Shown: positions 44,040-55,869, counted from the stretch's first letter. The stretch is DNA of 64,000 bases from Methanobacteriota archaeon (GCA_963769885.1 CAVYNH010000006.1:544001-608000), one strand, 5' to 3'. The notes: generated by a model from the sequence alone, not told the origin. Translations and numbers: made by a program.

Positions 44040-46028
44040 ATGAGAAGGTTATCTGTTGTCTTAATAGTAAGTCTGCTGATGATAAGCTGGGTACCAATCC
44101 TAAGTGCCCAATGGACTTCCAATCCCGCTGAAAACACGGCAATTACCATGATGGGTGGCGAACAGGCGCTGCCGAAGATCGCTGTTGATAGCGCCGGGTA
44201 TGCATACATCTCATGGTTTTCAATAGAAGGGGGGAATTATAATGTGCGGATGCAGCGTCTGGATCGTGATGGCAATGCGCTGTGGGGCGCAAATGGTGTG
44301 TTGGTCAGCGGCCAGCCTCAAGCGAGCTCGCTGACCGACTACGACCTGACCGTTGATTCGGCTGGGTATTCGGTTGTCACCTTTTCCGACATACGCACAG
44401 GTCAACTGAATCCTGTCGGGTATCGAGTTGCTCCGAACGGTACCATGATGTGGGGTCCGACCGGCGTCCTGCTTACAAACGACACCAACTATGACCCGAG
44501 CCCAAAAGTGTGCACCACGCCCGCTGGAAACAGCGTTTTTGCATGGCAAAGCTGTCCGGATACCGGCAACTATCAAGTCCGTCTGCAAAAAGTCTCGCCG
44601 GCCGGACAGAAGTTATGGGGGAACAGCATCATCATGACGCAATCTGGTGTTGATTATGTTTCCCCGTACTTGCAGCCGGCGGAGAACGACAGCGTGTACG
44701 TGATCTGGCATAAGGCGACCGGCTCGCACCTCTATCCCAATCGTGGGCTCTATGTGCAGAAGCTCGATGCGAACGGGAATTTCATGTGGGCATCGGCCCT
44801 GGAAATCTACGCCCCGGTCCCAGAGGGTCCGGTGGTGAATCTCCAGATGTGCAGGGACGATGTCGGAGGAATTATCTTCACTTGGTATCTTTCTACCGAC
44901 ATTAGCCACTTTTACTGTTATGTGCAGCGGATGGATGCCAATGGTACGATCAGCATGCCTGCCAATGGCGTGCTCGCGTCGACGTCGACGGCACGGATTC
45001 ACATGTATCCAACGCCGGCCTTTTTGAGCCAGACCCGTCAGATCGTCCTCTTCTTCAGCGAGCAGGATTTAAACCAGATTATGCGCGGCATGTATGCTCA
45101 GAAATTCGACCTTCAGGGCAACCGACTGTGGGGTGACGAAGGGAAAGAGTTGATTGGGCTTTCGAATAATGATTACTTCCTCCTGTTTGCTGGTGGGAAT
45201 GACAACAAGGCGATTTGCACCTATCAGGCTGCTGAACCTGGAAGTAGTCCCTATACCAAAATCCAGGCCGTGATGCTCGACGATTCGGGGAATTTCACGT
45301 GGCCGGGGCATTTCGTTGATCTGTGCACTGTTCTAAGCTCGAAGCTGCACAACGTGATGAGCCAGTATTATATGGGGCAATGGGTCGCGGTGTGGGAAGA
45401 CCTACGCAACGATGACGGGGATATCTATGCCCAGAACATCCAGCCAGACGGCACCCTTGGTCCTGTGGTGAACCAGCCTCCTGTCGCTGATTTCACCTGG
45501 ACGCCGTCCGACCCCTCGCCTGGCGAGGCCGTGCAGTTCACCGACCTTTCGCATGATCCCGTCGGGGATATCGTGAATTGGTCGTGGGATTTCGGCGATG
45601 GCAACACGAGTTTCGCTCAGAATCCGACGCATCTATACACACTGCCGGGGATGTACACGGTCAGCCTGATGGTGACCGATAACGATGGCGCCAATGGCAG
45701 CGTCTCGAAGAACCTTACCGTGATCAATCCGTACCTCAACATCACCATCAAACCCGGTGTCGGTCTTGGCATCACAGTGATTTTCAACAACAGCGGGCCA
45801 ACCGCCGTGCTCAAGGAGCCCTATGAGATCACGGTGAAAGGGGGAGTCCTCGGGCGTATCAACAAGCGTGTGAATGATACCGTCGATATCCCCGCTGGTG
45901 GGTCGACACCCGTCAAGACAGGGATGCTGTTCGGGTTCGGGGCGCTCAAGATCACCGCGAAGCTCGCTGACAAAGAACAGACCGCAACCGGAACGCAGAT
46001 CATCATCTTGACACTGGTGAAGAAATAG
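44040..46028 (+). CDS. secreted repeat (beta-propeller-like) protein with PKD domain and shared C-terminal domain
   Basis: Signal peptide, repeated QRLD.NG..LWG..G units, WSWDFGDG PKD, CTD NNSG/GGVLG/FGFG. Confidence 0.8.
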   Translation: MRRLSVVLIVSLLMISWVPILSAQWTSNPAENTAITMMGGEQALPKIAVDSAGYAYISWFSIEGGNYNVRMQRLDRDGNALWGANGVLVSGQPQASSLTDYDLTVDSAGYSVVTFSDIRTGQLNPVGYRVAPNGTMMWGPTGVLLTNDTNYDPSPKVCTTPAGNSVFAWQSCPDTGNYQVRLQKVSPAGQKLWGNSIIMTQSGVDYVSPYLQPAENDSVYVIWHKATGSHLYPNRGLYVQKLDANGNFMWASALEIYAPVPEGPVVNLQMCRDDVGGIIFTWYLSTDISHFYCYVQRMDANGTISMPANGVLASTSTARIHMYPTPAFLSQTRQIVLFFSEQDLNQIMRGMYAQKFDLQGNRLWGDEGKELIGLSNNDYFLLFAGGNDNKAICTYQAAEPGSSPYTKIQAVMLDDSGNFTWPGHFVDLCTVLSSKLHNVMSQYYMGQWVAVWEDLRNDDGDIYAQNIQPDGTLGPVVNQPPVADFTWTPSDPSPGEAVQFTDLSHDPVGDIVNWSWDFGDGNTSFAQNPTHLYTLPGMYTVSLMVTDNDGANGSVSKNLTVINPYLNITIKPGVGLGITVIFNNSGPTAVLKEPYEITVKGGVLGRINKRVNDTVDIPAGGSTPVKTGMLFGFGALKITAKLADKEQTATGTQIIILTLVKK

Positions 46029-46064
46029 GGAAGACGACTTCCCTTTCTCCCTTCTTTTCTTTTT
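46028..46064 (+). terminator. hairpin plus pyrimidine/T-tract terminator
   Basis: GGGAAG-acga-CTTCCC followed by a T-rich tract. Confidence 0.55.
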
Positions 46065-46106
46065 AAATTTCTTACGATAGCCTAGCTTCTTTTCCTGTTG
46101 CAGGAA

Positions 46107-46146
46107 TGGGCCCGGCATGGTCCGGTTCCCGTCAACAGGAGAAAAT
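46107..46146 (-). repeat. degenerate copy of tRNA-Ile2 3' end (att-like)
   Basis: TGGGCCCGGCA is identical to 55796-55806; the following GTCAACAGGAGAAAAT also occurs at 54447-54462. Confidence 0.65.
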
Positions 46147-46414
46147 CGGATCGACAAACCCCTGTTTTTGGCCAGTGTCGATTTGCCAACCTTGGTATCA
46201 ATCTACCCTCTTTTTTTCTTTTTATGTACTTTTCAAAGCGCTTGATATTCCGCAGGGTAATGAGCCAAAATCAAATTCCCATACTGGTTAATAGTCGGGG
46301 GTGGGAGTAATAGAAAAAACCGTCTTCTCCAGTAGAAGGAATTTAATTTCTTCCAAACATTTAAATGAATTAACAGACATTATATCCGTAATGAATAAGG
46401 GCGGGAAAGACCAC

Positions 46415-48730
46415 ATGAGAACTACTCTCTGGACCAAAATAGTTGTTATAAGCATCATCCTCTTTCTCGGCACAGGTGTTGTCCCGGCAATCAACGGAAA
46501 CATCGAGCATAATGTGCAAGGTAGTCAATCAATAAAAACGATGCAACTTTCATCGTCCGCACTTACCTTTGACCAGACCTCTATTGCGTCACTTGCAAAC
46601 CCAGACGAACTGCCAATTGAAAAAATCGTCTCTAACAACGTCTACGTACAATCACCAAATCATCGACCGATTCTCGAATCGAATAACACCATGATTACCC
46701 AACCCTTAGACAACGATATCTATCGCACAGGGGATCTTATCGACATCGAAGGAACCGCAGACGGCGCAAATTTCCAATACTACACCGTCGACTGGGGGAT
46801 TGGCGAAAACCCCAGCCAATGGAACACTACCGGCATCACTCTCACCAACGACGGCCAAGAACCTATCGCCAACAACACCCTCGCCACCTGGAACACCAAC
46901 TTCGCCACCACCGCCAACTACTACACCCTCAGACTCACCGTCAATTACACCACCTCCCAAGACACCGCCCTCATCATCGACATCTACATCGACCCTGCCC
47001 TCAAACAAGGATGGCCACAACACATCCCCTTCGAATGGACCCCAGACGGCTTAACCTATTACTGGGCCGGATTACTTGAACCTGCCGTCGCTGACATCAA
47101 CAACGACGGCTACTCTGAAATCATCGCCTACAAAGGCGGAAACCCACCGAAACTGGATTGCTTCAGCCAAGACGGCACACTCCTCTGGGAAGCCCCCGTC
47201 GGAAACACAGATTCACCTGGTGGGAACCTCAACTACCCCGTCATCGGAGACGTCAATAACGACGGCTACGATGAAATCGTCGTCTTCCATTTCCTGCACT
47301 TCGACTTCGACCATTCACAAGTCTACGTCTTCGGCCACAACGGAGCAGTCCTACTCGGCTGGCCTGTCACACTCCCCAAAGAATTTCACGCGACAATCAT
47401 CATCGCCGATGTTAATAACGACGGATACCGGGATATCATTTTCAAAGGAAACGACGCCAAAAACCGAATGCTCATCGTCCTCGACCACACAGGATCAATA
47501 ATCACCCAATTTCCACTTTACCACGTAAATTGGGGAAGCTTCATCGAACCCTGCCCAACCGTCGGAAACTTCGACAGCGACCCAGAACTTGAAATTGTCA
47601 CCGCCGATCCTAGTGAATACGCCGGCTACAACTCGACCTCAGGACAATGGAACAACACCGGCGTCATTCACGTCTACAACCTCGACGGCACCGAAGTACC
47701 CGGATGGCCAGTTTACACCCCTGGTGTCATCTTCTCCTCGCCAGTTACTGCAGACATCAACAACGACGGCTACCCCGAAATCATCGTCGGACTCGAATTC
47801 GCCGGCGACGCACCCAACCCAGACTATGGCGGCCTCTACGTCTATGACCACAACGGCTATGTCCTCCCCGGCTTCCCCTTCGAAAAAGGCTGGAACTTCG
47901 CCTCCACACCCGCCGTCGCAGACTTCGACAACGACGGCTACCTCGAAATCACCGCCAGCCGACTCGGATTCTACACCTACGTCATCCACCACGACGGAAC
48001 ACTCGCAGCCGGATGGCCACAAACCACAATCTGGAACGACTACTACTCTACTATAGCCGGAGATGTCGACGGCGATCATATTCCCGACATCGTAACCACT
48101 GCTGGCAATGGATTCTGCCCCATCTACCAACCCGGCGGCGTCTATGCCTGGAAATACGACGGCACACCCATCCCCGGATTCCCCAAAGTCACTGAAGGCG
48201 ACGCACAAGCACCAGCCACTATCGCCGACATCGACAACGACGGCAAAGTCGAAATCATCGCCAGCTCCGACTGGGATATGGACTTCCAGACAGCCTCCTT
48301 CAAAGAACGAGGAACACTCTACGTTTGGGACATCAACACCACCTACAATCAAACCACGATGCTCTGGCCAACCTTCCACCTCAACACAGAACGCACCGGC
48401 ATGATCCCAACATCACCCATGCCATACCTCATAATTGGAAACATCACCGGAGGATTCTTTAAAATCAAATCAACCATCAACAATATAGGCACCGCACCAG
48501 CAACCACTATCCAATGGAACATCACGCTAACAGGCGGACTCATCCTCATAGGACGAAAAACAACCAGAACCATCTCAACGCTCAATCCCAGCATGGAACA
48601 AATCATTATGTCGAAAGCCATTATTGGTTTCGGAAAAACAGTGATCACCATCACGGCCGCCATACCAAGGATGACCGTGACAAAGCAACAGAACGCAACC
48701 GTGAGGTTGTTTTTCATTCACACGAACTAA
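46415..48730 (+). CDS. secreted FG-GAP/VCBS repeat protein with shared C-terminal domain
   Basis: Signal peptide MRTTLWTKIVVISIILFLG; repeated P.VADINNDGY.EII and GWP motifs; CTD NNIGTAPA/GGLIL/GFGKTVIT. Confidence 0.85.
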   Translation: MRTTLWTKIVVISIILFLGTGVVPAINGNIEHNVQGSQSIKTMQLSSSALTFDQTSIASLANPDELPIEKIVSNNVYVQSPNHRPILESNNTMITQPLDNDIYRTGDLIDIEGTADGANFQYYTVDWGIGENPSQWNTTGITLTNDGQEPIANNTLATWNTNFATTANYYTLRLTVNYTTSQDTALIIDIYIDPALKQGWPQHIPFEWTPDGLTYYWAGLLEPAVADINNDGYSEIIAYKGGNPPKLDCFSQDGTLLWEAPVGNTDSPGGNLNYPVIGDVNNDGYDEIVVFHFLHFDFDHSQVYVFGHNGAVLLGWPVTLPKEFHATIIIADVNNDGYRDIIFKGNDAKNRMLIVLDHTGSIITQFPLYHVNWGSFIEPCPTVGNFDSDPELEIVTADPSEYAGYNSTSGQWNNTGVIHVYNLDGTEVPGWPVYTPGVIFSSPVTADINNDGYPEIIVGLEFAGDAPNPDYGGLYVYDHNGYVLPGFPFEKGWNFASTPAVADFDNDGYLEITASRLGFYTYVIHHDGTLAAGWPQTTIWNDYYSTIAGDVDGDHIPDIVTTAGNGFCPIYQPGGVYAWKYDGTPIPGFPKVTEGDAQAPATIADIDNDGKVEIIASSDWDMDFQTASFKERGTLYVWDINTTYNQTTMLWPTFHLNTERTGMIPTSPMPYLIIGNITGGFFKIKSTINNIGTAPATTIQWNITLTGGLILIGRKTTRTISTLNPSMEQIIMSKAIIGFGKTVITITAAIPRMTVTKQQNATVRLFFIHTN

Positions 48731-48737
48731 ACCAAAC

Positions 48738-48778
48738 CCGAGCAACAAAAGAGATGCGGTCGGCAGGAAGCAGACAGG
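48738..48778 (-). repeat. degenerate att-like repeat at the left edge of the AT-rich operon
   Basis: CCGAG..AAAA.AGATGcGgtCGGCAGGAAGC.GAC.AGG aligns with 54410-54447; CGGCAGGAAGC is identical. Confidence 0.55.
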
Positions 48779-48919
48779 CGACCGAGAGTAAGAGGAGGTG
48801 AAATATTCTGCTGCGTTGTGTGTTCTACTGCGTTTTTAAACCAATCAGGTTAAATATCACCGGAGGATTATAGATGTTTTACCCTTCAAGTTTTCTAGAA
48901 AATAAGGGAGGTAATATCA

Positions 48920-50189
48920 TTGTCCCTTGAAAGTCGACAGAGATTATTAATCGATAAAAAGCGGGTTGATGAAGTCAATGCTTTTTTTATGGATCCATCG
49001 AATAAGCTCATTCAAGATCTACTGGTGCTAGTAGAAAAATATGGAGGACCTGAGGAGATCAATCGAAAAGCACGGGAGAATGGCTCCATTGAATCGCTTC
49101 TGTCCCGTCTTCAAACGAAACACTCGCCGTATGTCAAGGATTTAGAATGGCTTTATAAACAGCGGGAAAAGCAGTCGTTCATTAGCGTGGATGAATACCG
49201 ACGGAGAATCCTCGGAGATCGAGTGAAGAAAATAACTGTTGATGAAGACTATGCAGTTACCCTTGAAATAAGCGCGTGTCAATATTTCCCTTTTTTTATG
49301 GTGGAAGCACGACAAGCACTTGAAAAAGAACAGTTGTTGCCAGGTCGTTTCATCCGTGTGCGTCGCATGAAGGAACAGGAACAAGACGACGACCTGCTCG
49401 CGATAAATGCTGCGATGCAGATTATTGGGGCGAGCTGGTGCGATACCTTGGATACGCGTGGAACTGATGGATCAAATGTTCATCTCGGAGGCCCAGAGAC
49501 CATTACAGGGTATTTTGGGGGTGTTGGGCAGCCAAATGACCATGCGATCCGCTGGGTAAATGAACTCCTCTACTACTACACCAACTATGGTGTACGTCAG
49601 GGTACTGAATGTCAATTCAGGGACGATTCTGTTGGGATATCTGCTCCATAAGCTCGGCATTGATATCGAGTTTAAGATTTCTGTCTTCATGGGGAATGAT
49701 AACCCGTATGCCGTGTTCTGGACGCTGATGGCTGCTCGGCTGTTTTCCCGGGATGACGGTTCCACCTCGTTAATCGGGTTCAACTTTTCAAACTCCGTGG
49801 ATAATCTCAGTATTGAGATGAGTGCTGACATCCGACGGTCTCTTGGGCTGGAGAGATACGTTCGATTTGAGCATCATATTCTGGAGACTTGGAAAAGCAT
49901 CGTCGTGCAACCGTATGATCGTCGGGAGGAGCTGTTAGATCTCGCCACAAAGGTGAAGAACATCAGCGCCAAGCATGAGGGTGGGGAACTCGTGGTGGAA
50001 CAACAACGGGCCCATCCCTCCGATATCCTTGACTATTTCCTTTCTAAGGAGGAAATCAACGAGAAAGGATTGATGTCCGATCTCCTCCAAAATTATCTGG
50101 ATAAACATGAGGCGATTAACAATACCGCGAAGGCGTTGACTGAAAAAGGTCTAGCATTTATTGCTGCATCAAAACTGCATCACAGGTAA
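48920..50189 (+). pseudogene. conserved-looking hypothetical protein (about 422 aa) with one +1 frameshift at GGG 49600-49602
   Basis: TTG start after GGAGGT. Deleting one G joins ...NYGVRQ to VLNVNSGTILLGY... Enzyme-like motifs TLEISACQYFP, LDTRGTDGSNVHLGG, GYFGGVGQPN, ISAKHEGG. Confidence 0.75.
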
Positions 50190-50199
50190 GGGATAATAC

Positions 50200-51243
50200 A
50201 TGCATTTCAAATTAGCGTTTATTGGCTTTGGAACCGTTGGACAAGGACTGGCTGAGATATTAGTAGAAAAAAAAGAGATGCTCTCGAAAAAATATGATTT
50301 CCAGTATACGGTTGTAGCCATTTCTGATATCATGAAAGGCTCTGTCTATGAGAAAGATGGTCTTGATTTGAAAAAGATCCTCGAACTCGTGAAAAAAGGG
50401 AAAAAGTTGGATGAGTACCCCGCCGGTAAGAAAGGTATGGATGGTCTCACGACAATCAAGGAAACGAATGCTGATACCATTATCGAGGTGACGTACACTG
50501 ATATAAAAACAGGTGAACCAGCGACGACGCACATCAAGACAGCTCTGAACGCTGGGAAGAATGTTGTCTCCACAAACAAAGGTCCGGTTGTTCGAGAGGC
50601 GAACGCTCTGTTAGATTTAGCTAGAAAGAAGGAGGTTCACTATGGTTTTGAGGGAGTTGTCCTCGCTGGAACACCTGCGTTAAATCTAGTCAAATACACT
50701 CTTGCAGGTACTAACATTAGGGGGTTCAAAGGGATATTGAATGGTACAACCAACTACATTTTAACCCGCATGGGCGAAGGCATGTCCTATGAAGATGCTT
50801 TGAAAAAAGCCCAAGCCCTTGGGTATGCTGAGGCCGATCCAACAGCAGATGTGGAAGGTATTGACGCAATGGGCAAAGTCGTTATTTTGACAAACGTCGT
50901 GTTAGAAAAAAATATTACAGTGAACGATGTACAAAGGAAAGGTATTACTGAAGTTACACAAAAGGATATCAAGGATGCAGCATCTGAAGGGAAATGCTGG
51001 AAATTAATTGGTAGTGCAGAGGTGCAAGCAAATGGCTCAGTGAAGGCAAGAGTCTGGCCTGAGAAACTGCCTTTGAGCGATCCGCTTGCAGGTGTGAGAG
51101 GTGCGACAAATGCGCTGACCTATTCCACTGATGAACTCGGTCCGGTCACGATTGTCGGACCCGGTGCTGGTCGCCGTGAGACAGGGTTTGCGTTGCTAAT
51201 CGATCTCTTAAACCTCAATCGCGAAATGCAAAAAACCCCTTGA
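50200..51243 (+). CDS. hom: homoserine dehydrogenase (no ACT domain)
   Basis: GFGTVG, TNKGP, GILNGTTNYIL, GYAEADPTADVEG.D, GPGAG. Confidence 0.92.
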   Translation: MHFKLAFIGFGTVGQGLAEILVEKKEMLSKKYDFQYTVVAISDIMKGSVYEKDGLDLKKILELVKKGKKLDEYPAGKKGMDGLTTIKETNADTIIEVTYTDIKTGEPATTHIKTALNAGKNVVSTNKGPVVREANALLDLARKKEVHYGFEGVVLAGTPALNLVKYTLAGTNIRGFKGILNGTTNYILTRMGEGMSYEDALKKAQALGYAEADPTADVEGIDAMGKVVILTNVVLEKNITVNDVQRKGITEVTQKDIKDAASEGKCWKLIGSAEVQANGSVKARVWPEKLPLSDPLAGVRGATNALTYSTDELGPVTIVGPGAGRRETGFALLIDLLNLNREMQKTP

Positions 51244-51295
51244 GAGAAAAAAGAATTCGCCCTTGGAGGATAGATAGAATGGACGGGGAAACTAC

Positions 51296-53131
51296 ATGAC
51301 CGGCGGATACACTGGGACAACCCTTATCGTTGATCTCTCGACACAACAAACCAGAAGAGAAAGCACAAGGATAGATGATGCCAAACTGTTCATTGGTGCA
51401 AAAGGCCTTGGTGCAAAACTGCTCATCGATCGCCTTCCTAAGGGTACCGATCCTTTCTCCCCGGTGAACCTCCTGATGTTTGGAACCGGGCCATTAACAG
51501 GGACGTCAGCACAAACGTCTGGCCGAGGAACAGTGATCACCAAATCACCACAGACTGGATTGTTTGTGGATTCCCATTTCGGTGGCGCGTTTGCCATGGA
51601 GATGAAACGATGCGGCTATGATATGATCGTGTTCTCTGGCAAATCGAAAACCCCGACCTATATCACCATAGCAGATGACCATATCGAATTCAAAGACGCC
51701 GCACACCTCTGGGGAATGGAGTGCCTGAAAACCCACGAATGGCTGCAACAAAATGAAGGGCGCGTGAAAACCGCGGTGATTGGTCCAGCAGGGGAACATC
51801 TCGTAAAGTTTTCTGCGATTACCTTTGATGGTCACCGTCATGCGGGTCGCTGTGGCACTGGGGCAGTGATGGGGTCGAAACTCTTGAAAGCCGTGACTAC
51901 GCAGGGGACGTACAACATACCACTGCATGACCCTCAGCAGTTTCAAGAGCTCTCAAAAAGAGTTCTACAAAAAATCCAAGAACATCCATTTGTCCCTATC
52001 CGAAGGGAATATGGGACGCCATTCTGGGTGAAACCAATCAATGACGGGGGGCTGCTCCCCACACAGAATTTTCAGGAAGGCGTATTTGATCATGCACAGG
52101 GGATTACCGCAGAAACCATGCAAGATCGTGTTGTCGACAAGGGTGGCGCCTGTTGGAACTGCGTGATTGCCTGTTGGAACAGATCCAGCGTGAAATCAGG
52201 GCCGTTCAAAGGAACCTCGCTGGTGGGCCCAGAGTATGAGACCTTGGCGTTGATGGGATCAAATTGCGGCGTCGCAAGTGTTGAAGAAGTCGCGTATTTG
52301 AATGAACGATGTAATGAGCTTGGGATGGATACGATCTCCCTAGGTAATGTGCTTGCGTTCACCATTGAATGCGTTGAAAAAGGTATTCTTTCAACAAAGG
52401 ATCTGTTAGGCATCAATATCGGCTGGGGGAAAACAAGAGAACTCGCTCAGCTGATAGAGGCAATTGCCTATCGGAAAAATGCCGCCTGTGATGCCCTAGC
52501 GGATGGTGTCTATATAGCGTCTCGTCGGTTCGGAAAAAAGGCTGAGCGTATCGCGGTGCATGTGAAAGGCCTTGAGGTACCAGGATATGATCCTCGAGGG
52601 AGCGTTGGCATGGGTCTTGCGTATGCCACCTCTGATCGCGGTGCCTGTCATCAGCGCGCGTGGACGGTGACCACCGAGATGAATAATCCAGAGTATCAGC
52701 GATTTTCTTTTACAAAGAAAGCGGAGTTGGTGAAACGGATTCAGGATGAACGTGCCGCTTTTTTTTCTTTGGTATTCTGTGATTTTGCACCTATTTCTGA
52801 GGAGGATTGCGTTGGATTGTGGAATCATGCAGCAGGTTTTAATCACACCGTTGAGAGCTATCTATTAGCGGGTGAGAGGATTTGGAATCTCATTCGACTG
52901 TTTAACCTCCGGGAGGGGATGAACCCAGGAACTGATCGATTACCACCGCGTTTTCATAAAGACGCTTTCACGAAAGGCCCTGCAAAAGACAGAGTCCTCA
53001 ATGAAAATGAGTTCAACAAAAGTCTTCAAGAATATTACGCGCTTCGTGGATGGAATGAAAAAGGGATTCCCACCAAAGAAAAACTCAATCAATTAGGGTT
53101 GACATCGTATGCGAAGTCCATTGGTCTGTAA
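51296..53131 (+). CDS. tungsten aldehyde:ferredoxin oxidoreductase family protein
   Basis: TKSPQTG, IGPAGE, AGRCGTGAVMGSK, CWNCVIAC, GPEYET, GMDTIS, YDPRG, DRGACH, YY.LRGW. Confidence 0.93.
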   Translation: MTGGYTGTTLIVDLSTQQTRRESTRIDDAKLFIGAKGLGAKLLIDRLPKGTDPFSPVNLLMFGTGPLTGTSAQTSGRGTVITKSPQTGLFVDSHFGGAFAMEMKRCGYDMIVFSGKSKTPTYITIADDHIEFKDAAHLWGMECLKTHEWLQQNEGRVKTAVIGPAGEHLVKFSAITFDGHRHAGRCGTGAVMGSKLLKAVTTQGTYNIPLHDPQQFQELSKRVLQKIQEHPFVPIRREYGTPFWVKPINDGGLLPTQNFQEGVFDHAQGITAETMQDRVVDKGGACWNCVIACWNRSSVKSGPFKGTSLVGPEYETLALMGSNCGVASVEEVAYLNERCNELGMDTISLGNVLAFTIECVEKGILSTKDLLGINIGWGKTRELAQLIEAIAYRKNAACDALADGVYIASRRFGKKAERIAVHVKGLEVPGYDPRGSVGMGLAYATSDRGACHQRAWTVTTEMNNPEYQRFSFTKKAELVKRIQDERAAFFSLVFCDFAPISEEDCVGLWNHAAGFNHTVESYLLAGERIWNLIRLFNLREGMNPGTDRLPPRFHKDAFTKGPAKDRVLNENEFNKSLQEYYALRGWNEKGIPTKEKLNQLGLTSYAKSIGL

Positions 53132-53150
53132 CACAGGTCTCTGAGGAGTA

Positions 53151-54320
53151 GTGCGAAACATGGTGAGCGTAAGCGAGGGAGCGAAACGGATTTATGGTGA
53201 GGCTGCCTTCGAAGTCCTTGCCAGGGCTCAAGAACTCGAGCGACAAGGGAGGCACGTGCTTCATTTTGAAATCGGCGAGCCGGACATGGAAACTCCTCGA
53301 AACATCGTCCAGGCGGGAATCAAGGCGATTCGTCAGAGAAAAACCCATTACACTCCCTCCGTCGGCATTGCGGAGCTTCGAAAGGCTGTGCAAGATGAGG
53401 TGGAAAAAACACGGAGGTTTCGCCCTGATTTCGATCAGGTCGTGATTACTCCTGGGTTGAAACCAGGTATCTTTTTTTCCATGCTCGCGCTTGTGAACCC
53501 TGGAGATGAAGTGATCTTTCAGGATCCAGGGTATCCCACCTACGGCTCTGTCACCGAGTTTCTTGGAGCAACAAGCGTTCGTATTCCACTGCTAGAAGAA
53601 AATGAGTTCCGTATGAACCCTGACGATGTTCAACAGCGGATTACACACAAAACAAAAGGAATCATCGTCAACTCTCCACAGAACCCCACAGGATCGGTCA
53701 TGACCCAGAAGGAACTCGAGGAGATTGCAGAGATTGCTGAAGAACATGATCTGTTTATCATTTCAGATGAAATCTATTCGAAGATGATTTATGATATGGA
53801 CCATTATTCTCCTGCTGTGAGAGATGAAGCAAAAGAACGTTCTGTGTTATTAGAGGGATTTTCCAAGTATTACGCGATGACTGGGTGGCGCCTTGGATAC
53901 GTGATAGCACCAGTGGAGGTGGCCCATCGATTAGCGGATTTTTTAGTCAGTGCAGTCTCGTGCACCGCTTCGTTTACCCAGTGGGCAGGTATTGAAGCTT
54001 TGACCGGTGATCAAGCCTTTATTTCTCAGATGATGACCCGCTTTAGAAAAAAACGTGATCGTATCGTCAAAGGGTTGAACTCCATTCAAGGCTTTCACTG
54101 CCTCACTCCTCAGGGTGCATTTTACGCGTTTCCAAATATCACAAAAACAGGGCTACATTCAAAGGAGTGTGCCGAAAAAATTTTGTCTGAGGCTGGGGTC
54201 GCCTGTCTTCCTGGGACGGCGTTTGGTCCTTATGGCGAAGGATATCTTCGATTTTCCTATGCGACTTCATTAAAAACCATTGATGAGGGGATTAGGAGAA
54301 TCAAAGAATTGTTTGAATAG
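53151..54320 (+). CDS. class I PLP aminotransferase (aspartate aminotransferase-like)
   Basis: IGEPD, THYTPSVG, NSPQNPTG, SDEIY, GFSKYYAMTGWRLG, GAFY, YLRFSY. Confidence 0.92.
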   Translation: MRNMVSVSEGAKRIYGEAAFEVLARAQELERQGRHVLHFEIGEPDMETPRNIVQAGIKAIRQRKTHYTPSVGIAELRKAVQDEVEKTRRFRPDFDQVVITPGLKPGIFFSMLALVNPGDEVIFQDPGYPTYGSVTEFLGATSVRIPLLEENEFRMNPDDVQQRITHKTKGIIVNSPQNPTGSVMTQKELEEIAEIAEEHDLFIISDEIYSKMIYDMDHYSPAVRDEAKERSVLLEGFSKYYAMTGWRLGYVIAPVEVAHRLADFLVSAVSCTASFTQWAGIEALTGDQAFISQMMTRFRKKRDRIVKGLNSIQGFHCLTPQGAFYAFPNITKTGLHSKECAEKILSEAGVACLPGTAFGPYGEGYLRFSYATSLKTIDEGIRRIKELFE

Positions 54321-54409
54321 AAGATAGAGGCCCTCCAGAAAATAAACATGGCGACATACGGGAATCTGAAGATTGTTTGGTGGAAAATCGTCAATCTTCT
54401 ATATTTTCT

Positions 54410-54462
54410 CCGAGAAAAATAGATGGGCCCGGCAGGAAGCGACGAGGTCAACAGGAGAAAAT
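54410..54462 (-). repeat. copy of tRNA-Ile2 3' end and trailer (att-like)
   Basis: TGGGCCCGGCAGGA (54424-54437) is identical to 55796-55809; preceding CCGAGAAAAATAGA resembles CCGAGAGAAAAAGG next to the tRNA. Confidence 0.75.
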
Positions 54463-54766
54463 TTTTTAGATTGTTTGCCGATTTTCGCTCAATCTAAATT
54501 TTGAAGAATGGTTCTTTTTTCACTAAAACATACTCTATTTTTTCTTCCCTTTTTCTAAATTTTTGATGCTTCTATTGGGAAAACCTACTAATTGTAAAAT
54601 GCTCCTAGGTTGAAGGATTTTTCACCAATTGCTAGACTGTTCTCCGAGGAAGTTGTTCGCTAAATCTTCAAGGCTTAGCTACCGAAGGCCGCAGGAGGGG
54701 AGAGATAGATCTACTGTGAAATCTCTGCATACAAATTATTGCCGTAAACAAGTATTTTTTCTATGC

Positions 54767-55210
54767 TTATACCAATCGATAATCCTCTTTAACCACCTCT
54801 AACACCACATGTGTGTTTGTTCTTTCTACGTACGGTATGGAAAGAACAGTCTTTGTAAATTCACTGAGTGTTTTTCTGTTCTTGAACTTCGCAATTGCAA
54901 CTGCATCAAATTCTCCTGTGACATCATACATTGCACACACATTGGAAATCTTGGCAATTTCATTTTCGACTTCAAGTAATTTTCCTTTTGATACGATGAT
55001 TTCCGTGATAGCGGTCAGTTCGTAACCAAGCTTCTCGTAATCTGTTATCGCCGAATATCTGCGTATGATTCCAGCGTTTTCCATTTTCTTTATTTTCATA
55101 ATAACAGTTCCGACTGAGACTTTCACTTTTTTAGCTATTTTCCTGTTTGAGACTCTCGCATTTTCAAGAAGATTTTTTAGTATATTGACGTCTGTCTTAT
55201 CCAAATCCAT
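54767..55210 (-). CDS. Lrp/AsnC family transcriptional regulator
   Basis: MDLDKTDVNIL..L..NAR.S...IA HTH, DYEKLGY, YDVTGEFD RAM domain. Confidence 0.93.
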   Translation of the reverse strand: MDLDKTDVNILKNLLENARVSNRKIAKKVKVSVGTVIMKIKKMENAGIIRRYSAITDYEKLGYELTAITEIIVSKGKLLEVENEIAKISNVCAMYDVTGEFDAVAIAKFKNRKTLSEFTKTVLSIPYVERTNTHVVLEVVKEDYRLV

Positions 55211-55255
55211 AATGAACCTCTGCCATTATACATATTTCCAATATTTATTAAATTT

Positions 55256-55271
55256 TTGGACAATTGTTCAA
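55256..55271. promoter_or_regulatory. near-palindromic operator candidate between lrp and the divergent gene
   Basis: TTGGACAATTGTTCAA, palindromic except for one pair, in an AT-rich divergent promoter region. Confidence 0.45.
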
Positions 55272-55356
55272 TATTTTTAAAAATAGCTTTATATGTATTC
55301 ATATTTATTAATGCTTTCAAAATTATTAACAAGAATCAAGGAGAGGTGAAACATCT

Positions 55357-55731
55357 ATGAAAACCATCGGGTATTTAGAAGGAACAGATCCGGAGTTCTT
55401 AACGACGCTTGTATGTAAGGGCTATCGAACGTTACCAATTGGGAACGATACCGATAACCATGGAAAAAACATCGCATTCATATCAATCGCAGATAAAATC
55501 GATCTCATCGTCGGATATCTCCACAAGGTATCCCCACTCCCAGGAATGACCAAATCCCTCAGCGAGTTCCTCACACCAGGGATTCTCCATCAAATACCAA
55601 TTCTCTTACTCGCCCCCAAAGACCTGTTCCCTGAAGCAAAGAAGATAGTATCAAAAGCGACCATGAGTAAAAATATCAAAGTGGTTGATCCAAAAAATCT
55701 TAGGACCGAAGCATTAAAAATCCTCCGTTAA
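55357..55731 (+). CDS. hypothetical protein (124 aa, flavodoxin/receiver-like alpha/beta pattern)
   Basis: Strong SD GGAGAGGTGA; motifs IGYLEGTDP, TLPIGN..DNHGK, DLIVGYLHK. Confidence 0.75.
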   Translation: MKTIGYLEGTDPEFLTTLVCKGYRTLPIGNDTDNHGKNIAFISIADKIDLIVGYLHKVSPLPGMTKSLSEFLTPGILHQIPILLLAPKDLFPEAKKIVSKATMSKNIKVVDPKNLRTEALKILR

Positions 55732-55795
55732 AACTATTCTATATGTAATTCAAAAAAGAATAGCAATCTATCACGTTTTTTCCGAGAGAAAAAGG

Positions 55796-55869
55796 TGGGC
55801 CCGGCAGGATTTGAACCTGCGACCAACTGGTTATGAGCCAGTCGCTCCACCGGTCTAAGCTACGAGCCC
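55796..55869 (-). tRNA. tRNA-Ile2 (anticodon CAU), intronless
   Basis: Minus strand reads GGGCTCGTAGCTTAGACCGGTGGAGCGACTGGCTCATAACCAGTTGGTCGCAGGTTCAAATCCTGCCGGGCCCA, a full cloverleaf. The GGGC acceptor stem favours archaeal Ile2 over initiator or elongator Met. Confidence 0.9.

What the first reader, a model, noticed from the sequence alone, without database searches (positions are those of the whole stretch)
48920..54320. Unknown protein + homoserine dehydrogenase + W-AOR + aspartate aminotransferase-like operon: candidate kinase-free homoserine/aspartate route
Seen: four closely spaced co-oriented genes with no aspartate kinase, asd, thrB/thrC or met genes beside hom, and Hom lacks an ACT domain. 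Known: Hom interconverts homoserine and aspartate semialdehyde; AOR interconverts aldehydes and acids with ferredoxin; AspAT links aspartate and oxaloacetate. Inference: the set could run homoserine -> aspartate semialdehyde -> aspartate -> oxaloacetate, yielding NAD(P)H and reduced ferredoxin, or run in reverse to bypass Ask/Asd. The ~422-aa unknown protein would be the entry enzyme producing homoserine or an analogue from an unidentified substrate.
Basis: inference. Interest (0 to 1): 0.7.

Follow-up and report, generated by a model that had tools for sequence, protein, structure and literature searches.

The report
Orphan enzyme–Hom–AOR–aminotransferase catabolic cassette
A mobile four-gene operon in an uncultured archaeon pairs a very widespread, very conserved enzyme of unknown family with homoserine dehydrogenase, an aldehyde oxidoreductase and an aminotransferase, and most likely burns a four-carbon amino acid down to aspartate by a route not yet described.

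Summary
The four co-oriented genes are real and sit at the stated coordinates. As assembled, the first gene is broken by one extra G at 49597-49599; a 98.6%-identical relative has it intact.

- **The unknown protein:** it belongs to a huge orphan family of about 424 aa, with at least 8000 clusters at 90% identity. It matches no Pfam, NCBIfam or PDB sequence. The predicted fold is a TIM barrel, closest to metal-dependent class II aldolases.
- **Conserved linkage:** in the window's archaeal family, homoserine dehydrogenase (Hom) occurs only in genomes that carry the orphan gene (13 of 13, against 0 of 21).
- **Genome background:** the genome has no detectable aspartate kinase (Ask), aspartate-semialdehyde dehydrogenase (Asd), threonine synthase (ThrC), PanB or Fae.
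- **Other lineages:**
  - The orphan sits with a PanB paralog, or with a DapA-like::Fae fusion that lacks the aspartate-semialdehyde (ASA)-binding arginine.
  - The aldehyde:ferredoxin oxidoreductase (AOR) is replaced by an NAD-type aldehyde dehydrogenase (ALDH).
  - The aminotransferase is replaced by other aminotransferases or by amino-acid dehydrogenases.
- **Distant homologue:** a 312-aa relative lies between PanB2 and an amino-acid dehydrogenase in ectoine-utilisation-like clusters of anaerobic Bacillota.

Best reading (inferred): a 4-substituted 2-aminobutyrate is converted to its 2-oxoacid. The orphan turns that into 4-hydroxy-2-oxobutanoate, which goes on to homoserine, aspartate semialdehyde and aspartate.

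The scan had flagged the same operon on other DNA, unresolved.

The parts
48747..48771 (.). Left att-like repeat, a degenerate copy of the 3' end of the tRNA(CAT) at 55794-55869. It marks the left boundary of the operon cassette.
   Evidence: Direct-repeat families D5/D7. The pattern search found 2 matches against 0.22 expected. The junction with relative L104 falls here.
48920..49599 (+). Orphan TIM-barrel enzyme, N-terminal part. It has a TTG start with GGAGG 9 nt upstream; the frame stays open to 49651.
   Evidence: It is 99% identical to intact P0121 and 57-78% identical to about 424-aa homologues.
49597..49599 (+). Frameshift site: GGG where close relatives have GG (+1 insertion).
   Evidence: Alignment of the window with L104 and L001. 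Homologues read through this point.
49600..50189 (+). Orphan TIM-barrel enzyme, C-terminal part, in the next frame (ORF 49560-50189).
   Evidence: The own-genome search finds the two halves as separate matches covering profile positions 4-227 and 227-422.
50200..51243 (+). Homoserine dehydrogenase without an ACT domain. It is the only Hom in the genome.
   Evidence: PF00742 at 5e-59; NCBIfam PRK06270 at 433 bits, over the cut-off of 373. Single genome match. The best solved relative is 3do5.
51296..53131 (+). Tungsten-type aldehyde:ferredoxin oxidoreductase (AOR family).
   Evidence: AFOR_N plus AFOR_C, both full length. It is closest to the solved AORs 9mqx and 1aor (484 and 439 bits), ahead of FOR 1b25 (343 bits).
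53151..54320 (+). Class I (AspAT/aromatic-type) PLP aminotransferase.
   Evidence: PF00155 at 9e-68. The best NCBIfam model is archaeal AspAT at 345 bits, below its cut-off of 550. The best solved relatives are 1dju and 1gd9. Orthologues at 50-90% identity sit next to the orphan in other archaea.
54392..54440 (.). Right att-like repeat (copy of the tRNA 3' end plus flank). It marks the right boundary of the operon cassette.
   Evidence: D5 is 80% identical to 55764-55809, and D7 is 84% identical to 48747-48771. Exact pattern match.
54767..55210 (-). AsnC/Lrp-type regulator in the next cassette. The same protein cluster sits next to the orphan gene in six other loci (cluster 15: seven loci counting the window).
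   Evidence: It falls by BLAST into cluster 15, whose representative is AsnC_trans_reg plus HTH_24.
55794..55869 (-). tRNA with CAT anticodon. Its 3' end is the repeated core.
   Evidence: ARAGORN; repeats.

Best explanation
The operon is a self-contained, horizontally mobile catabolic module. It funnels a four-carbon amino-acid skeleton to aspartate while yielding NAD(P)H and reduced ferredoxin.

**Proposed order**
1. The aminotransferase converts a 4-substituted 2-aminobutyrate to its 2-oxoacid. The candidate substrate is L-2,4-diaminobutyrate; the alternative is methionine or homocysteine.
2. The orphan TIM-barrel enzyme uses enolate or Schiff-base chemistry, with a metal and/or the invariant Lys in the FK(I/V)SV motif. 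It expels the 4-substituent and adds water, giving 4-hydroxy-2-oxobutanoate (HOB).
3. The aminotransferase makes homoserine from HOB.
4. Hom oxidises homoserine to aspartate 4-semialdehyde.
5. AOR oxidises the semialdehyde to aspartate.

In bacteria and Asgard/Bathyarchaeia the same orphan enzyme instead feeds HOB to a PanB paralog or to a DapA-like::Fae fusion. These would split HOB into pyruvate plus methylene-tetrahydrofolate or methylene-tetrahydromethanopterin.

**Shown:** gene content, conservation, phyletic coupling, absence of the canonical aspartate pathway, the non-orthologous replacements, and the fold class.

**Inferred:** every substrate and the chemistry of the orphan enzyme.
For: 1. 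**The operon behaves as a unit.**
   - The orphan-Hom-AOR-aminotransferase order recurs in Thermoplasmatota loci.
   - In the window's family the orphan is in 14 of 35 genomes and Hom in 13 of 35, and these are the same genomes. None of the 21 orphan-negative genomes has Hom, and the same-genus genome lacks both.
   - The operon lies between tRNA-3'-end repeats and has lower G+C than its flanks.
2. **Hom is not biosynthetic here.**
   - The own genome has no Asd, Ask, ThrC, PF01053 enzyme or DUF39.
   - Six other operon-bearing genomes have no Asd, including a complete chromosome.
   - 54 of 61 family genomes have no PF02774 hit.
3. **Direction.** An Aldedh-family enzyme replaces AOR in the same position in L021 and L022, and aldehyde dehydrogenases accompany the orphan in other loci.
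4. **An amino acid/2-oxoacid step is always present but is filled by non-orthologous enzymes.** These are an AspAT-like aminotransferase in archaea, a MocR/MppQ-like aminotransferase in bacteria (25-27% identical), and ELFV dehydrogenases.
5. **A C1-transfer or aldol step on a 2-oxoacid is the alternative partner.**
   - A PanB gene sits next to the orphan in 18 of 80 loci. It is a second copy in 12 of the 17 such genomes checked and forms its own groups on the tree.
   - A DapA-like::Fae fusion is present in 9 of 80 loci. Its ASA-binding Arg138 position is Cys in 6 of 7 sequences and Thr in one.
   - Both fit HOB <-> pyruvate + C1.
6. **A probable distant homologue points to diaminobutyrate.**
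   - A 312-aa protein matches the orphan's barrel (hhalign 61.5% probability, E 8e-5, 225 columns, motifs in register).
   - It occupies the same slot between PanB2 and an ELFV dehydrogenase.
   - Its clusters also hold DoeA/EutD-like, DoeB2-like, EutB-like and TRAP-transporter genes, but no DoeD or DoeC.
7. **Fold.** Both forms are predicted as TIM barrels. The nearest solved families by Foldseek are class II metal-dependent aldolases: YdjI and FBA-II at E 1e-8 for the short form, and FBA-II and UxaE at about 1e-4 for the long form.
Against: - No activity has been measured for any of the four proteins.
- The orphan gene is frameshifted in this assembly, so the module may be inactive in this strain.
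- The long family is not linked to ectoine genes. No DoeA, DoeB2 or TRAP homologue lies near it in 88 loci or in the own genome. Only 2 of 50 genomes with the long form have a DoeA-like gene. Diaminobutyrate as the substrate of the window's enzyme is therefore an extrapolation from a 25%-identical relative.
- The homology between the long and short forms rests on 61.5% hhalign probability plus shared gene context.
- The aminotransferase would have to act on two or three substrates.
- The structural matches are generic TIM-barrel hits (VIA Z 10-15, flat lists).
- Five genomes with the PanB-orphan pair have only that one PanB copy, so a link to pantoate chemistry is not excluded.
Confidence: 0.4

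Rival explanations
1. Reverse, biosynthetic use. AOR would reduce aspartate to aspartate semialdehyde with reduced ferredoxin, and Hom would make homoserine. This bypasses aspartate kinase and Asd. The orphan enzyme would then use homoserine or HOB for a product such as homocysteine/methionine or a C1 unit.
For: - The genome and its family lack Ask and Asd but keep Hom.
- Many Asgard/Bathyarchaeia carriers of the orphan also lack a strong Asd hit.
- A homocysteine S-methyltransferase gene lies beside the orphan in three loci.
- In some bacteria the orphan lies among housekeeping genes such as Maf, CysS, GlnA and SerS.
Against: - An NAD-type aldehyde dehydrogenase, which does not reduce free acids, replaces AOR in L021/L022.
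- The operon is accessory: 14 of 35 genomes in the family carry it, and the same-genus genome does not.
- The own genome has no ThrC, PF01053 enzyme or DUF39 to use homoserine or ASA.
Confidence: 0.12
2. The orphan enzyme is itself a class II-type aldolase that joins pyruvate and formaldehyde into 4-hydroxy-2-oxobutanoate. The four genes would then fix or detoxify formaldehyde as aspartate (HOB to homoserine to ASA to aspartate), each gene being used once.
For: - The fold is nearest to class II aldolases.
- The four genes give exactly four steps.
- The partner genes elsewhere, PanB2 and DapA-like::Fae, handle formaldehyde-level C1 units.
Against: - In bacteria and Asgard archaea the orphan sits right beside an enzyme that would already do this C-C step, which makes it redundant there.
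- The short homologue lies after an amino-acid dehydrogenase in a catabolic, transporter-linked cluster.
- No formaldehyde source is evident in a peptide-degrading archaeon without Fae.
Confidence: 0.15
3. The skeleton is the 3,3-dimethyl one (ketopantoate/pantoate) rather than HOB/homoserine. The module would degrade or salvage pantoate or pantothenate. PanB2 would run ketopantoate <-> 2-oxoisovalerate + C1, and the aminotransferase or ELFV dehydrogenase would act on valine. Hom and AOR would mirror the known pantoate to aldopantoate to dimethylmalate oxidation (that pathway is cited from my own knowledge).
For: - PanB2 still passes the PanB equivalog cut-off (307-318 bits against 208).
- Five genomes have only the orphan-adjacent PanB copy.
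- ELFV dehydrogenases include valine dehydrogenases.
Against: - The operon's Hom passes the homoserine dehydrogenase equivalog cut-off.
- The DapA-like aldolase family works on pyruvate and keeps its Schiff-base Lys motif.
- The short form lies in ectoine-utilisation-like, not pantothenate-like, clusters.
- The Thermoplasmatota carriers have no PanB at all.
Confidence: 0.08
4. Same route as the best explanation, but the entry substrate is methionine (or homocysteine). The aminotransferase would make 4-methylthio-2-oxobutanoate, and the orphan would release methanethiol and form HOB.
For: - Methionine is the only protein amino acid with the homoserine skeleton.
- The window's genome and 13 Thermoplasmatota/Methanobacteriota-labelled carriers have no PF01053 enzyme, so no methionine gamma-lyase.
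- The best solved relatives of the aminotransferase are broad aromatic/Asp aminotransferases.
- A homocysteine S-methyltransferase neighbours the orphan in three loci.
- AsnC/Lrp regulators usually sense amino acids.
Against: - No sulfur-handling gene is conserved in the operon.
- Bacterial carriers mostly do have PF01053 enzymes, so the phyletic patterns are not complementary.
- The only homologue with an informative context points to diaminobutyrate.
Confidence: 0.1

Closest known systems
Lower ectoine pathway DoeD/DoeC (Atf/Ssd) with an AsnC regulator: diaminobutyrate to aspartate semialdehyde to aspartate (review PMC5924519)
   Same: Both end with oxidation of aspartate semialdehyde to aspartate, and both have an AsnC/Lrp-type regulator beside the genes. 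The short homologue of the orphan lies in clusters with DoeA/EutD-like, DoeB2-like, EutB-like and TRAP genes.
   Different: - There is no class III (omega) transaminase and no DoeC-type dehydrogenase.
- The window has a class I aminotransferase, Hom, a tungsten-type AOR and the orphan enzyme instead.
- The own genome has no DoeA or DoeB2 homologue.
- The review states that known ectoine consumers are restricted to Proteobacteria, whereas these clusters are in anaerobic Bacillota and archaea.
Canonical aspartate pathway (aspartate kinase, Asd, Hom)
   Same: Hom of the archaeal PRK06270 type, with homoserine and aspartate semialdehyde as intermediates.
   Different: Ask and Asd are not found in the genome or in related carriers. 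The aldehyde-to-acid step is taken by AOR or ALDH. The likely direction is oxidative. The operon is accessory and mobile.
Synthetic 'homoserine cycle' for formaldehyde assimilation (HOB aldolase plus HOB aminotransferase). My own knowledge; papers holding these terms are listed but were not read.
   Same: The proposed intermediates are the same: pyruvate + C1 <-> 4-hydroxy-2-oxobutanoate <-> homoserine.
   Different: That cycle is an engineered route using promiscuous E. coli aldolases. Here the C-C step would fall to dedicated natural enzymes (a PanB paralog, or a DapA-like::Fae fusion) acting with folate or methanopterin, probably in the cleavage direction.
Class II (metal-dependent) aldolases: YdjI, FBA-II, tagatose-bisphosphate aldolase, UxaE
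   Same: They are the best Foldseek matches for both forms of the orphan. All are TIM barrels that stabilise an enolate next to a carbonyl.
   Different: There is no sequence match to PF01116 or any other Pfam model, and TM-scores are only 0.31-0.57. No sugar-phosphate genes lie nearby. The long form has an extra N-terminal helical domain of about 85 aa.
AOR in archaeal peptide fermentation (oxidation of amino-acid-derived aldehydes; my own knowledge)
   Same: The same enzyme family, closest to the solved AORs proper, in a peptide-degrading archaeon.
   Different: The aldehyde would here come from an alcohol dehydrogenase step (Hom), not from 2-oxoacid decarboxylation. The AOR gene is tied to a specific operon.

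Membership tests
Homoserine dehydrogenase (gene 2) | Homoserine_dh catalytic domain plus NAD-binding domain, scoring over a curated equivalog cut-off | tested here: met
   PF00742 at 199 bits and PF03447. NCBIfam PRK06270 at 432.9 bits against a cut-off of 373.
Homoserine dehydrogenase (gene 2) | Activity on homoserine/aspartate semialdehyde; catalytic Lys/Asp residues | not tested
Canonical aspartate-family pathway | Aspartate kinase and aspartate-semialdehyde dehydrogenase present together with Hom | tested here: not met
   The own genome (92% complete) has no PF02774 hit, and TIGR00657 scores only 21.5 bits. Six related operon carriers have none.
Aldehyde:ferredoxin oxidoreductase family (gene 3) | AFOR_N plus AFOR_C domains over their full length | tested here: met
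   243 and 443 bits, covering the whole models. 484 bits to the solved AOR 9mqx.
Aldehyde:ferredoxin oxidoreductase family (gene 3) | Tungstopterin and 4Fe-4S ligands; substrate is aspartate semialdehyde | not tested
   The ligand residues were not mapped, and the substrate cannot be tested with these tools.
Archaeal aspartate aminotransferase equivalog (gene 4) | Score over the NCBIfam NF041091 cut-off | tested here: not met
   345 bits against a cut-off of 550. It is a class I aminotransferase (PF00155, 230 bits), but its specificity is unassigned.
Class II aldolase (F_bP_aldolase-type) for the orphan enzyme | Sequence match to the family model | tested here: not met
   No Pfam or NCBIfam family matches four full-length members, even at E 10. 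No PDB sequence hit with a single protein or with a profile.
Class II aldolase (F_bP_aldolase-type) for the orphan enzyme | Shared fold and metal-binding active site | tested here: inconclusive
   Foldseek E is about 1e-4 for the long form and 1e-8 for the short form, with TM 0.31-0.57. The VIA lists are flat, with Z 10-15. Metal ligands were not mapped.
Peptidase U32 family for the orphan enzyme | PF01136 match; conserved Cys ligands of the Fe-S forms | tested here: inconclusive
   There is no Pfam hit. The best ESM Atlas fold match is TM 0.57/0.72, and one short-form member is named 'Peptidase U32' by its source. No Cys is invariant in A1.
B12-dependent mutase large subunit (KamD/GlmE-like) for the orphan enzyme | Adjacent B12-binding small subunit | tested here: not met
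   No conserved small ORF or B12-binding gene appears beside the orphan in 88 loci. Structural matches are weak.
4-hydroxy-tetrahydrodipicolinate synthase (DapA) for the Fae-fused partner in other lineages | Arg138 (PGRTG), which binds aspartate semialdehyde | tested here: not met
   The motif reads YNIP.C(T/A)G in 6 of 7 sequences and has Thr in one. The Schiff-base Lys motif is kept. TIGR00674 is passed at 237 > 206 bits.
Ectoine Doe/Eut catabolic cluster (for the window's operon) | DoeA/EutD hydrolase and DoeB/EutE deacetylase present | tested here: not met
   tblastn finds no DoeA or M20/DoeB2 homologue in the own genome or near the long-form genes. Only 2 of 50 carrier genomes have a DoeA-like gene.
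tRNA-anchored integrative cassette | Direct repeats of the tRNA 3' end flanking the insert; variation in content between close strains | tested here: met
   Repeats lie at about 46104-46120, 48753-48771, 54422-54440 and in the tRNA itself. Relative L104 lacks 46118-48760. I did not look for an integrase.

The most novel reading that the evidence does not exclude
The orphan protein and its 312-aa relative define an unrecognised, very abundant enzyme superfamily. It would carry out a PLP-independent gamma-elimination/hydration on 4-substituted 2-oxobutanoates to give 4-hydroxy-2-oxobutanoate.

Together with a dedicated PanB paralog, or a DapA-like::Fae fusion, this would make a natural pathway that splits a C4 amino acid into pyruvate plus a folate- or methanopterin-bound C1 unit. 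Together with Hom and AOR it would instead yield aspartate. The pathway would include a so far undescribed anaerobic route for diaminobutyrate/ectoine in Bacillota.
Probability: 0.3. Interest if true: 0.85.

Novelty: new variant of a known kind. Interest (0 to 1): 0.72.

Why it matters
- **Abundance of an unnamed protein.**
  - The orphan is one of the more abundant proteins still without a name or a family. It has at least 8000 clusters at 90% identity and occurs in at least 591 species-level genomes.
  - It is spread across Thermoplasmatota, Asgard archaea, Bathyarchaeia, Chloroflexota, Desulfobacterota, Bipolaricaulota, Thermotogota and Clostridia, at about 60% identity between the two domains.
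- **A role for an unexplained gene.** If the model holds, it explains Hom in archaea that have no aspartate pathway.
- **Carbon cycling.** It would add a route by which sediment microbes turn a C4 amino acid into aspartate, or into pyruvate plus a C1 unit.
- **Use in engineering.** It would supply natural enzymes for 4-hydroxy-2-oxobutanoate chemistry, which synthetic C1-assimilation projects currently borrow from promiscuous aldolases.
- **Ectoine use in anaerobes.** It points to ectoine/diaminobutyrate use outside the Proteobacteria.
- **Testability.** Cultured carriers exist, so the idea can be tested directly (Anoxynatronum sibiricum, Alkaliphilus peptidifermentans, Desulfitibacter alkalitolerans, Moorella glycerini).

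Tried and rejected
- **Programmed frameshift:** rejected. Truncated homologues end at different places, and the 98.6%-identical relative lacks the extra G.
- **Sequence-based family assignment of the orphan:** Pfam, NCBIfam, PDB phmmer, a PDB profile search and ESM Atlas features (best 0.87, below the useful range) all gave nothing. An exhaustive profile search of 1.84 billion representatives found only the family itself, about three full-length representatives plus fragments, and no distant relatives.
- **B12-dependent mutase large subunit:** rejected for lack of any partner gene.
- **Housekeeping PanB:** rejected for most genomes, which have two copies forming separate tree groups. Five genomes have only the one copy.
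- **True DapA in the Fae fusion:** rejected, because the Arg138 position is changed.
- **Complementary phyletic pattern with methionine gamma-lyase/transsulfuration enzymes:** seen in Thermoplasmatota but not in bacteria.
- **Ectoine genes near the long family:** none found.
- **Candidate fusion proteins P0255 and P0247:** no informative extra domain.
- **Neighbourhood of the cultured carrier's long-form gene (L062):** uninformative.
- **Literature:** searches for the operon, for a DapA-Fae fusion, and for PanB acting on 4-hydroxy-2-oxobutanoate returned no paper.

Full report
**1. What is in the window**

Between 48920 and 54320 on the + strand lie four closely spaced ORFs.
- Gene 2 (50200-51243) is a 347-aa homoserine dehydrogenase (Hom). 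It matches PF00742 and passes the NCBIfam PRK06270 equivalog cut-off (433 > 373 bits). It has no ACT domain.
- Gene 3 (51296-53131) is a full-length aldehyde:ferredoxin oxidoreductase (AOR). It is closer to the solved AORs 9mqx and 1aor than to FOR, WOR5 or BamB.
- Gene 4 (53151-54320) is a class I aminotransferase. It resembles Pyrococcus aromatic/aspartate aminotransferases most closely, but scores below every NCBIfam equivalog cut-off.
- Gene 1 is not intact as assembled. It reads as two overlapping ORFs in different frames (48920-49651 and 49560-50189).

Homologues run straight through the junction. A 98.6%-identical contig (L104) has GG where the window has GGG at 49597-49599. This is a +1 insertion. 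It is not a conserved or programmed shift. Whether it is an assembly error or a real mutation could not be checked.

**2. The orphan family**

The N-terminal half alone recovers more than 1294 partial proteins and at least 8000 full-length proteins of about 424 aa. All are 'hypothetical' and none carries a Pfam domain. At least 591 species-level genomes carry the gene. They include Thermoplasmatota, Asgard archaea, Bathyarchaeia, Anaerolineae, Desulfobacterota, Bipolaricaulota, Thermotogae, Caldiserica and Spirochaetales, plus the cultured Anoxynatronum sibiricum.

A profile search of 1.84 billion 50%-identity representatives finds essentially one full-length cluster and fragments, with no distant relatives. 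Identity between archaeal and bacterial members is 57-66%. No Pfam, NCBIfam or PDB sequence match exists.

**3. Linkage**

I called and clustered ORFs in 88 loci.
- Hom lies within about 10 kb of the orphan in 22 of 80 species-level loci. The full orphan-Hom-AOR-aminotransferase order recurs in at least 9 Thermoplasmatota loci and in metagenome contigs.
- A phylum sample of 301 genomes holds the orphan in 29. In the window's own family it is in 14 of 35 genomes and Hom is in 13 of 35, and these are the same genomes. The one exception has only a fragment of the orphan at a contig end.
- None of the 21 orphan-negative genomes in that family has Hom, and the same-genus genome has neither gene.

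In this lineage, then, Hom exists only as part of the operon, and the operon is gained and lost as a unit.

**4. Genome background**

The window's genome is 2.09 Mb in 7 contigs and 92% complete.
- It has one Hom, no Asd and no aspartate kinase (best score 21 bits).
- It has no ThrC over cut-off, no PanB, no Fae, no real Cys/Met-metabolism PLP enzyme and no DUF39.
- It has one short MetE-like gene.
- Six other operon-bearing genomes, one of them a complete chromosome, have no Asd, PanB or PF01053 enzyme.
- In 61 genomes of the family only 7 have any PF02774 hit, and all of those are weak.

The Hom of this operon is therefore not part of the textbook aspartate pathway.

**5. Variation elsewhere shows which steps are constant**

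- **Aldehyde to acid.** AOR is replaced in the same position by an Aldedh-family enzyme in L021 and L022. Aldehyde dehydrogenases also accompany the orphan in L006 and L027. That enzyme type works only towards the acid, which sets the direction as homoserine to semialdehyde to aspartate.
- **Amino acid to 2-oxoacid.** Three non-orthologous enzymes fill this step. Archaea use an AspAT-like aminotransferase, with orthologues 50-90% identical. Deltaproteobacteria and Spirochaetales use a MocR/MppQ-like aminotransferase that is only 25-27% identical. Others use ELFV dehydrogenases, some with CBS domains.
- **C1 transfer or aldol step on a 2-oxoacid.**
  - In 18 of 80 loci a PanB gene directly precedes the orphan, often with an AsnC-type regulator.
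  - It is a second copy in 12 of the 17 such genomes checked, and it scores lower than the canonical copy.
  - It falls into its own groups on a tree, and these groups are nearly identical across phyla.
  - In 9 of 80 loci (Asgard, Bathyarchaeia, some Anaerolineae) the neighbour is a DapA-like::Fae fusion.
  - That fusion keeps the Schiff-base lysine motif. The arginine that binds aspartate semialdehyde in DapA is Cys in 6 of 7 sequences and Thr in one. It is therefore a pyruvate aldolase for another aldehyde, and the fused Fae points to formaldehyde.

Both partners fit the reaction 4-hydroxy-2-oxobutanoate (HOB) <-> pyruvate + C1. HOB is the transamination partner of homoserine. The C4 skeleton HOB/homoserine/semialdehyde is thus the common thread, and the orphan is the one component present in every version.

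**6. A distant homologue with an informative context**

In Anoxynatronum the second PanB copy lies in a run of DctP-DctQ, an M20 amidohydrolase, IclR, an ELFV dehydrogenase, a 312-aa protein without a Pfam match, and PanB2. A DoeA-like gene sits just upstream.

The 312-aa protein aligns to the orphan's barrel. A profile-profile comparison gives 61.5% probability and E 8e-5 over 225 columns. The FK(I/V)SV, GY..G and (T/S)(K/R)G.D motifs align in register. I treat this as probable, not proven, homology.

The short family has at least 449 clusters at 90% identity, in Bacillota. In Desulfitibacter-, Metallumcola- and Moorella-type contigs it lies next to an ELFV dehydrogenase, and next to PanB2 in two of the three contigs. 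The same clusters hold:
- DoeA/EutD-like genes (487-521 bits, the best family by far, but under the 613 cut-off);
- DoeB2-like M20 amidohydrolases;
- an EutB-like gene (400 bits against a cut-off of 413);
- Asp/Glu-racemase-like genes and TRAP-transporter genes.

No DoeD- or DoeC-type genes are present.

The known route is diaminobutyrate to semialdehyde (DoeD) to aspartate (DoeC). An asnC gene is present in 494 of 539 known clusters, and known consumers were described as restricted to Proteobacteria (PMC5924519).

The simplest reading of the Bacillota clusters has three steps. Diaminobutyrate is deaminated at the alpha position. The short enzyme turns 4-amino-2-oxobutanoate into HOB plus ammonia. 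PanB2 then gives pyruvate plus methylene-tetrahydrofolate.

**7. Structure**

- The long form is predicted (pLDDT 80, pTM 0.84) as an N-terminal helical domain of about 85 residues plus a TIM barrel. The most conserved loop (TLDTKGTDGSN.HLGG) has low confidence.
- The short form is the barrel alone (pLDDT 87).
- Foldseek ranks class II metal-dependent aldolases first. For the short form these are YdjI, FBA-II and tagatose-bisphosphate aldolase at E 1e-8, followed by PanB and methylisocitrate lyase. For the long form they are UxaE, KamD and FBA-II at about 1e-4.
- The exhaustive structural lists are flat, generic TIM-barrel lists.
- Invariant residues at strand ends include Glu, two Arg, Asp, several Asn, His and the Lys of FK(I/V)SV. 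No Cys is invariant.

This fits enolate or Schiff-base chemistry on a carbonyl acid. It does not identify the reaction.

**8. Model and its status**

Shown:
- the genes and their conservation;
- the phyletic coupling;
- the missing canonical pathway;
- the three sets of non-orthologous replacements;
- the fold class.

Inferred:
- the orphan converts a 4-substituted 2-oxobutanoate into HOB;
- the aminotransferase serves both the entry step and HOB to homoserine;
- Hom and AOR then give aspartate.

The substrate of the window's long-form enzyme is open. Diaminobutyrate is suggested only by the short homologue, and the long family shows no link to ectoine genes. Methionine or homocysteine is the other candidate. 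I put the general model at about 0.4. Any single named substrate rates lower.

**9. Rivals**

Four alternatives are set out with their evidence in the rival list:
- reverse biosynthetic use;
- the orphan as a pyruvate-formaldehyde aldolase;
- a ketopantoate/pantoate skeleton;
- a methionine entry.

**10. Mobility**

The region from 46 to 56 kb has 40-50% G+C, against 57-60% in the flanks. Degenerate copies of the 3' end of the tRNA(CAT) at 55794-55869 lie at about 46104-46120, 48753-48771 and 54422-54440. The operon is therefore exactly one cassette.

The close relative L104 lacks the neighbouring FG-GAP cassette (46118-48760). This agrees with an earlier first-stage note on this stretch. It supports the view that the four genes work as a self-sufficient unit.

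**11. Prior knowledge**

Full-text searches found no paper on this operon, on the fusion or on a PanB acting on HOB. The scan had flagged the same operon or the same orphan in several other genomes, without resolving it.

Noticed in passing
window 46093-55869: An array of cassettes is separated by degenerate copies of the tRNA(CAT) 3' end, with cores at about 46104-46120, 48753-48771, 54422-54440 and 55794-55809. The region has low G+C (0.40-0.50 against 0.57-0.60 in the flanks). The FG-GAP gene cassette (46118-48760) is absent from a 96-99%-identical relative (L104).
   Followed up: partly
L110 (Anoxynatronum sibiricum), L111, L112, L113: A 312-aa Bacillota protein family without a Pfam match is probably a distant homologue of the orphan. 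It lies next to an ELFV dehydrogenase (and, in three of the four loci, PanB2) inside ectoine-utilisation-like clusters with DoeA/EutD-like, DoeB2-like, EutB-like, racemase-like, TRAP and IclR genes. These clusters lack DoeD and DoeC. This is a candidate anaerobic ectoine/diaminobutyrate route.
   Followed up: partly
L027, L036, L038, L057, L060, L063, L074, L083: A DapA-like::Fae fusion protein of about 500 aa lies beside the orphan. The aspartate-semialdehyde-binding Arg of DapA is replaced by Cys (Thr in one sequence), although the protein passes the dapA equivalog cut-off. L036 has two tandem copies.
   Followed up: partly
L006, L033, L037, L048, L049, L051, L052, L056, L058, L061, L065-L068, L073, L077, L081, L085, L087: A second PanB copy directly precedes the orphan. 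These copies are nearly identical across Deltaproteobacteria, Spirochaetales, Thermotogae and Bipolaricaulota, which suggests joint horizontal transfer with the orphan.
   Followed up: partly
L004, L005, L011-L014, L016, L017, L020: A four-subunit 2-oxoacid:ferredoxin oxidoreductase and a small Thiamine_BP protein lie divergently just upstream of the operon in many Thermoplasmatota. A GHMP kinase and CoaBC lie about 7 kb upstream. Whether these are functionally linked is unknown.
   Followed up: no
L020, L021, L022: A malic enzyme gene lies next to the operon (upstream in L021/L022, downstream in L020). It could take the C4 product on to pyruvate.
   Followed up: no
window 44040-48730: Large secreted-type proteins lie just upstream: a 662-aa PKD-domain protein and an 809-aa FG-GAP repeat protein. 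In L104 a Peptidase_S8 gene sits there too. This is consistent with a peptide-degrading lifestyle.
   Followed up: no
L067, L077, L082: A stand-alone homocysteine S-methyltransferase (PF02574, 292 aa) lies next to the orphan in Bipolaricaulota and Anaerolineae.
   Followed up: no
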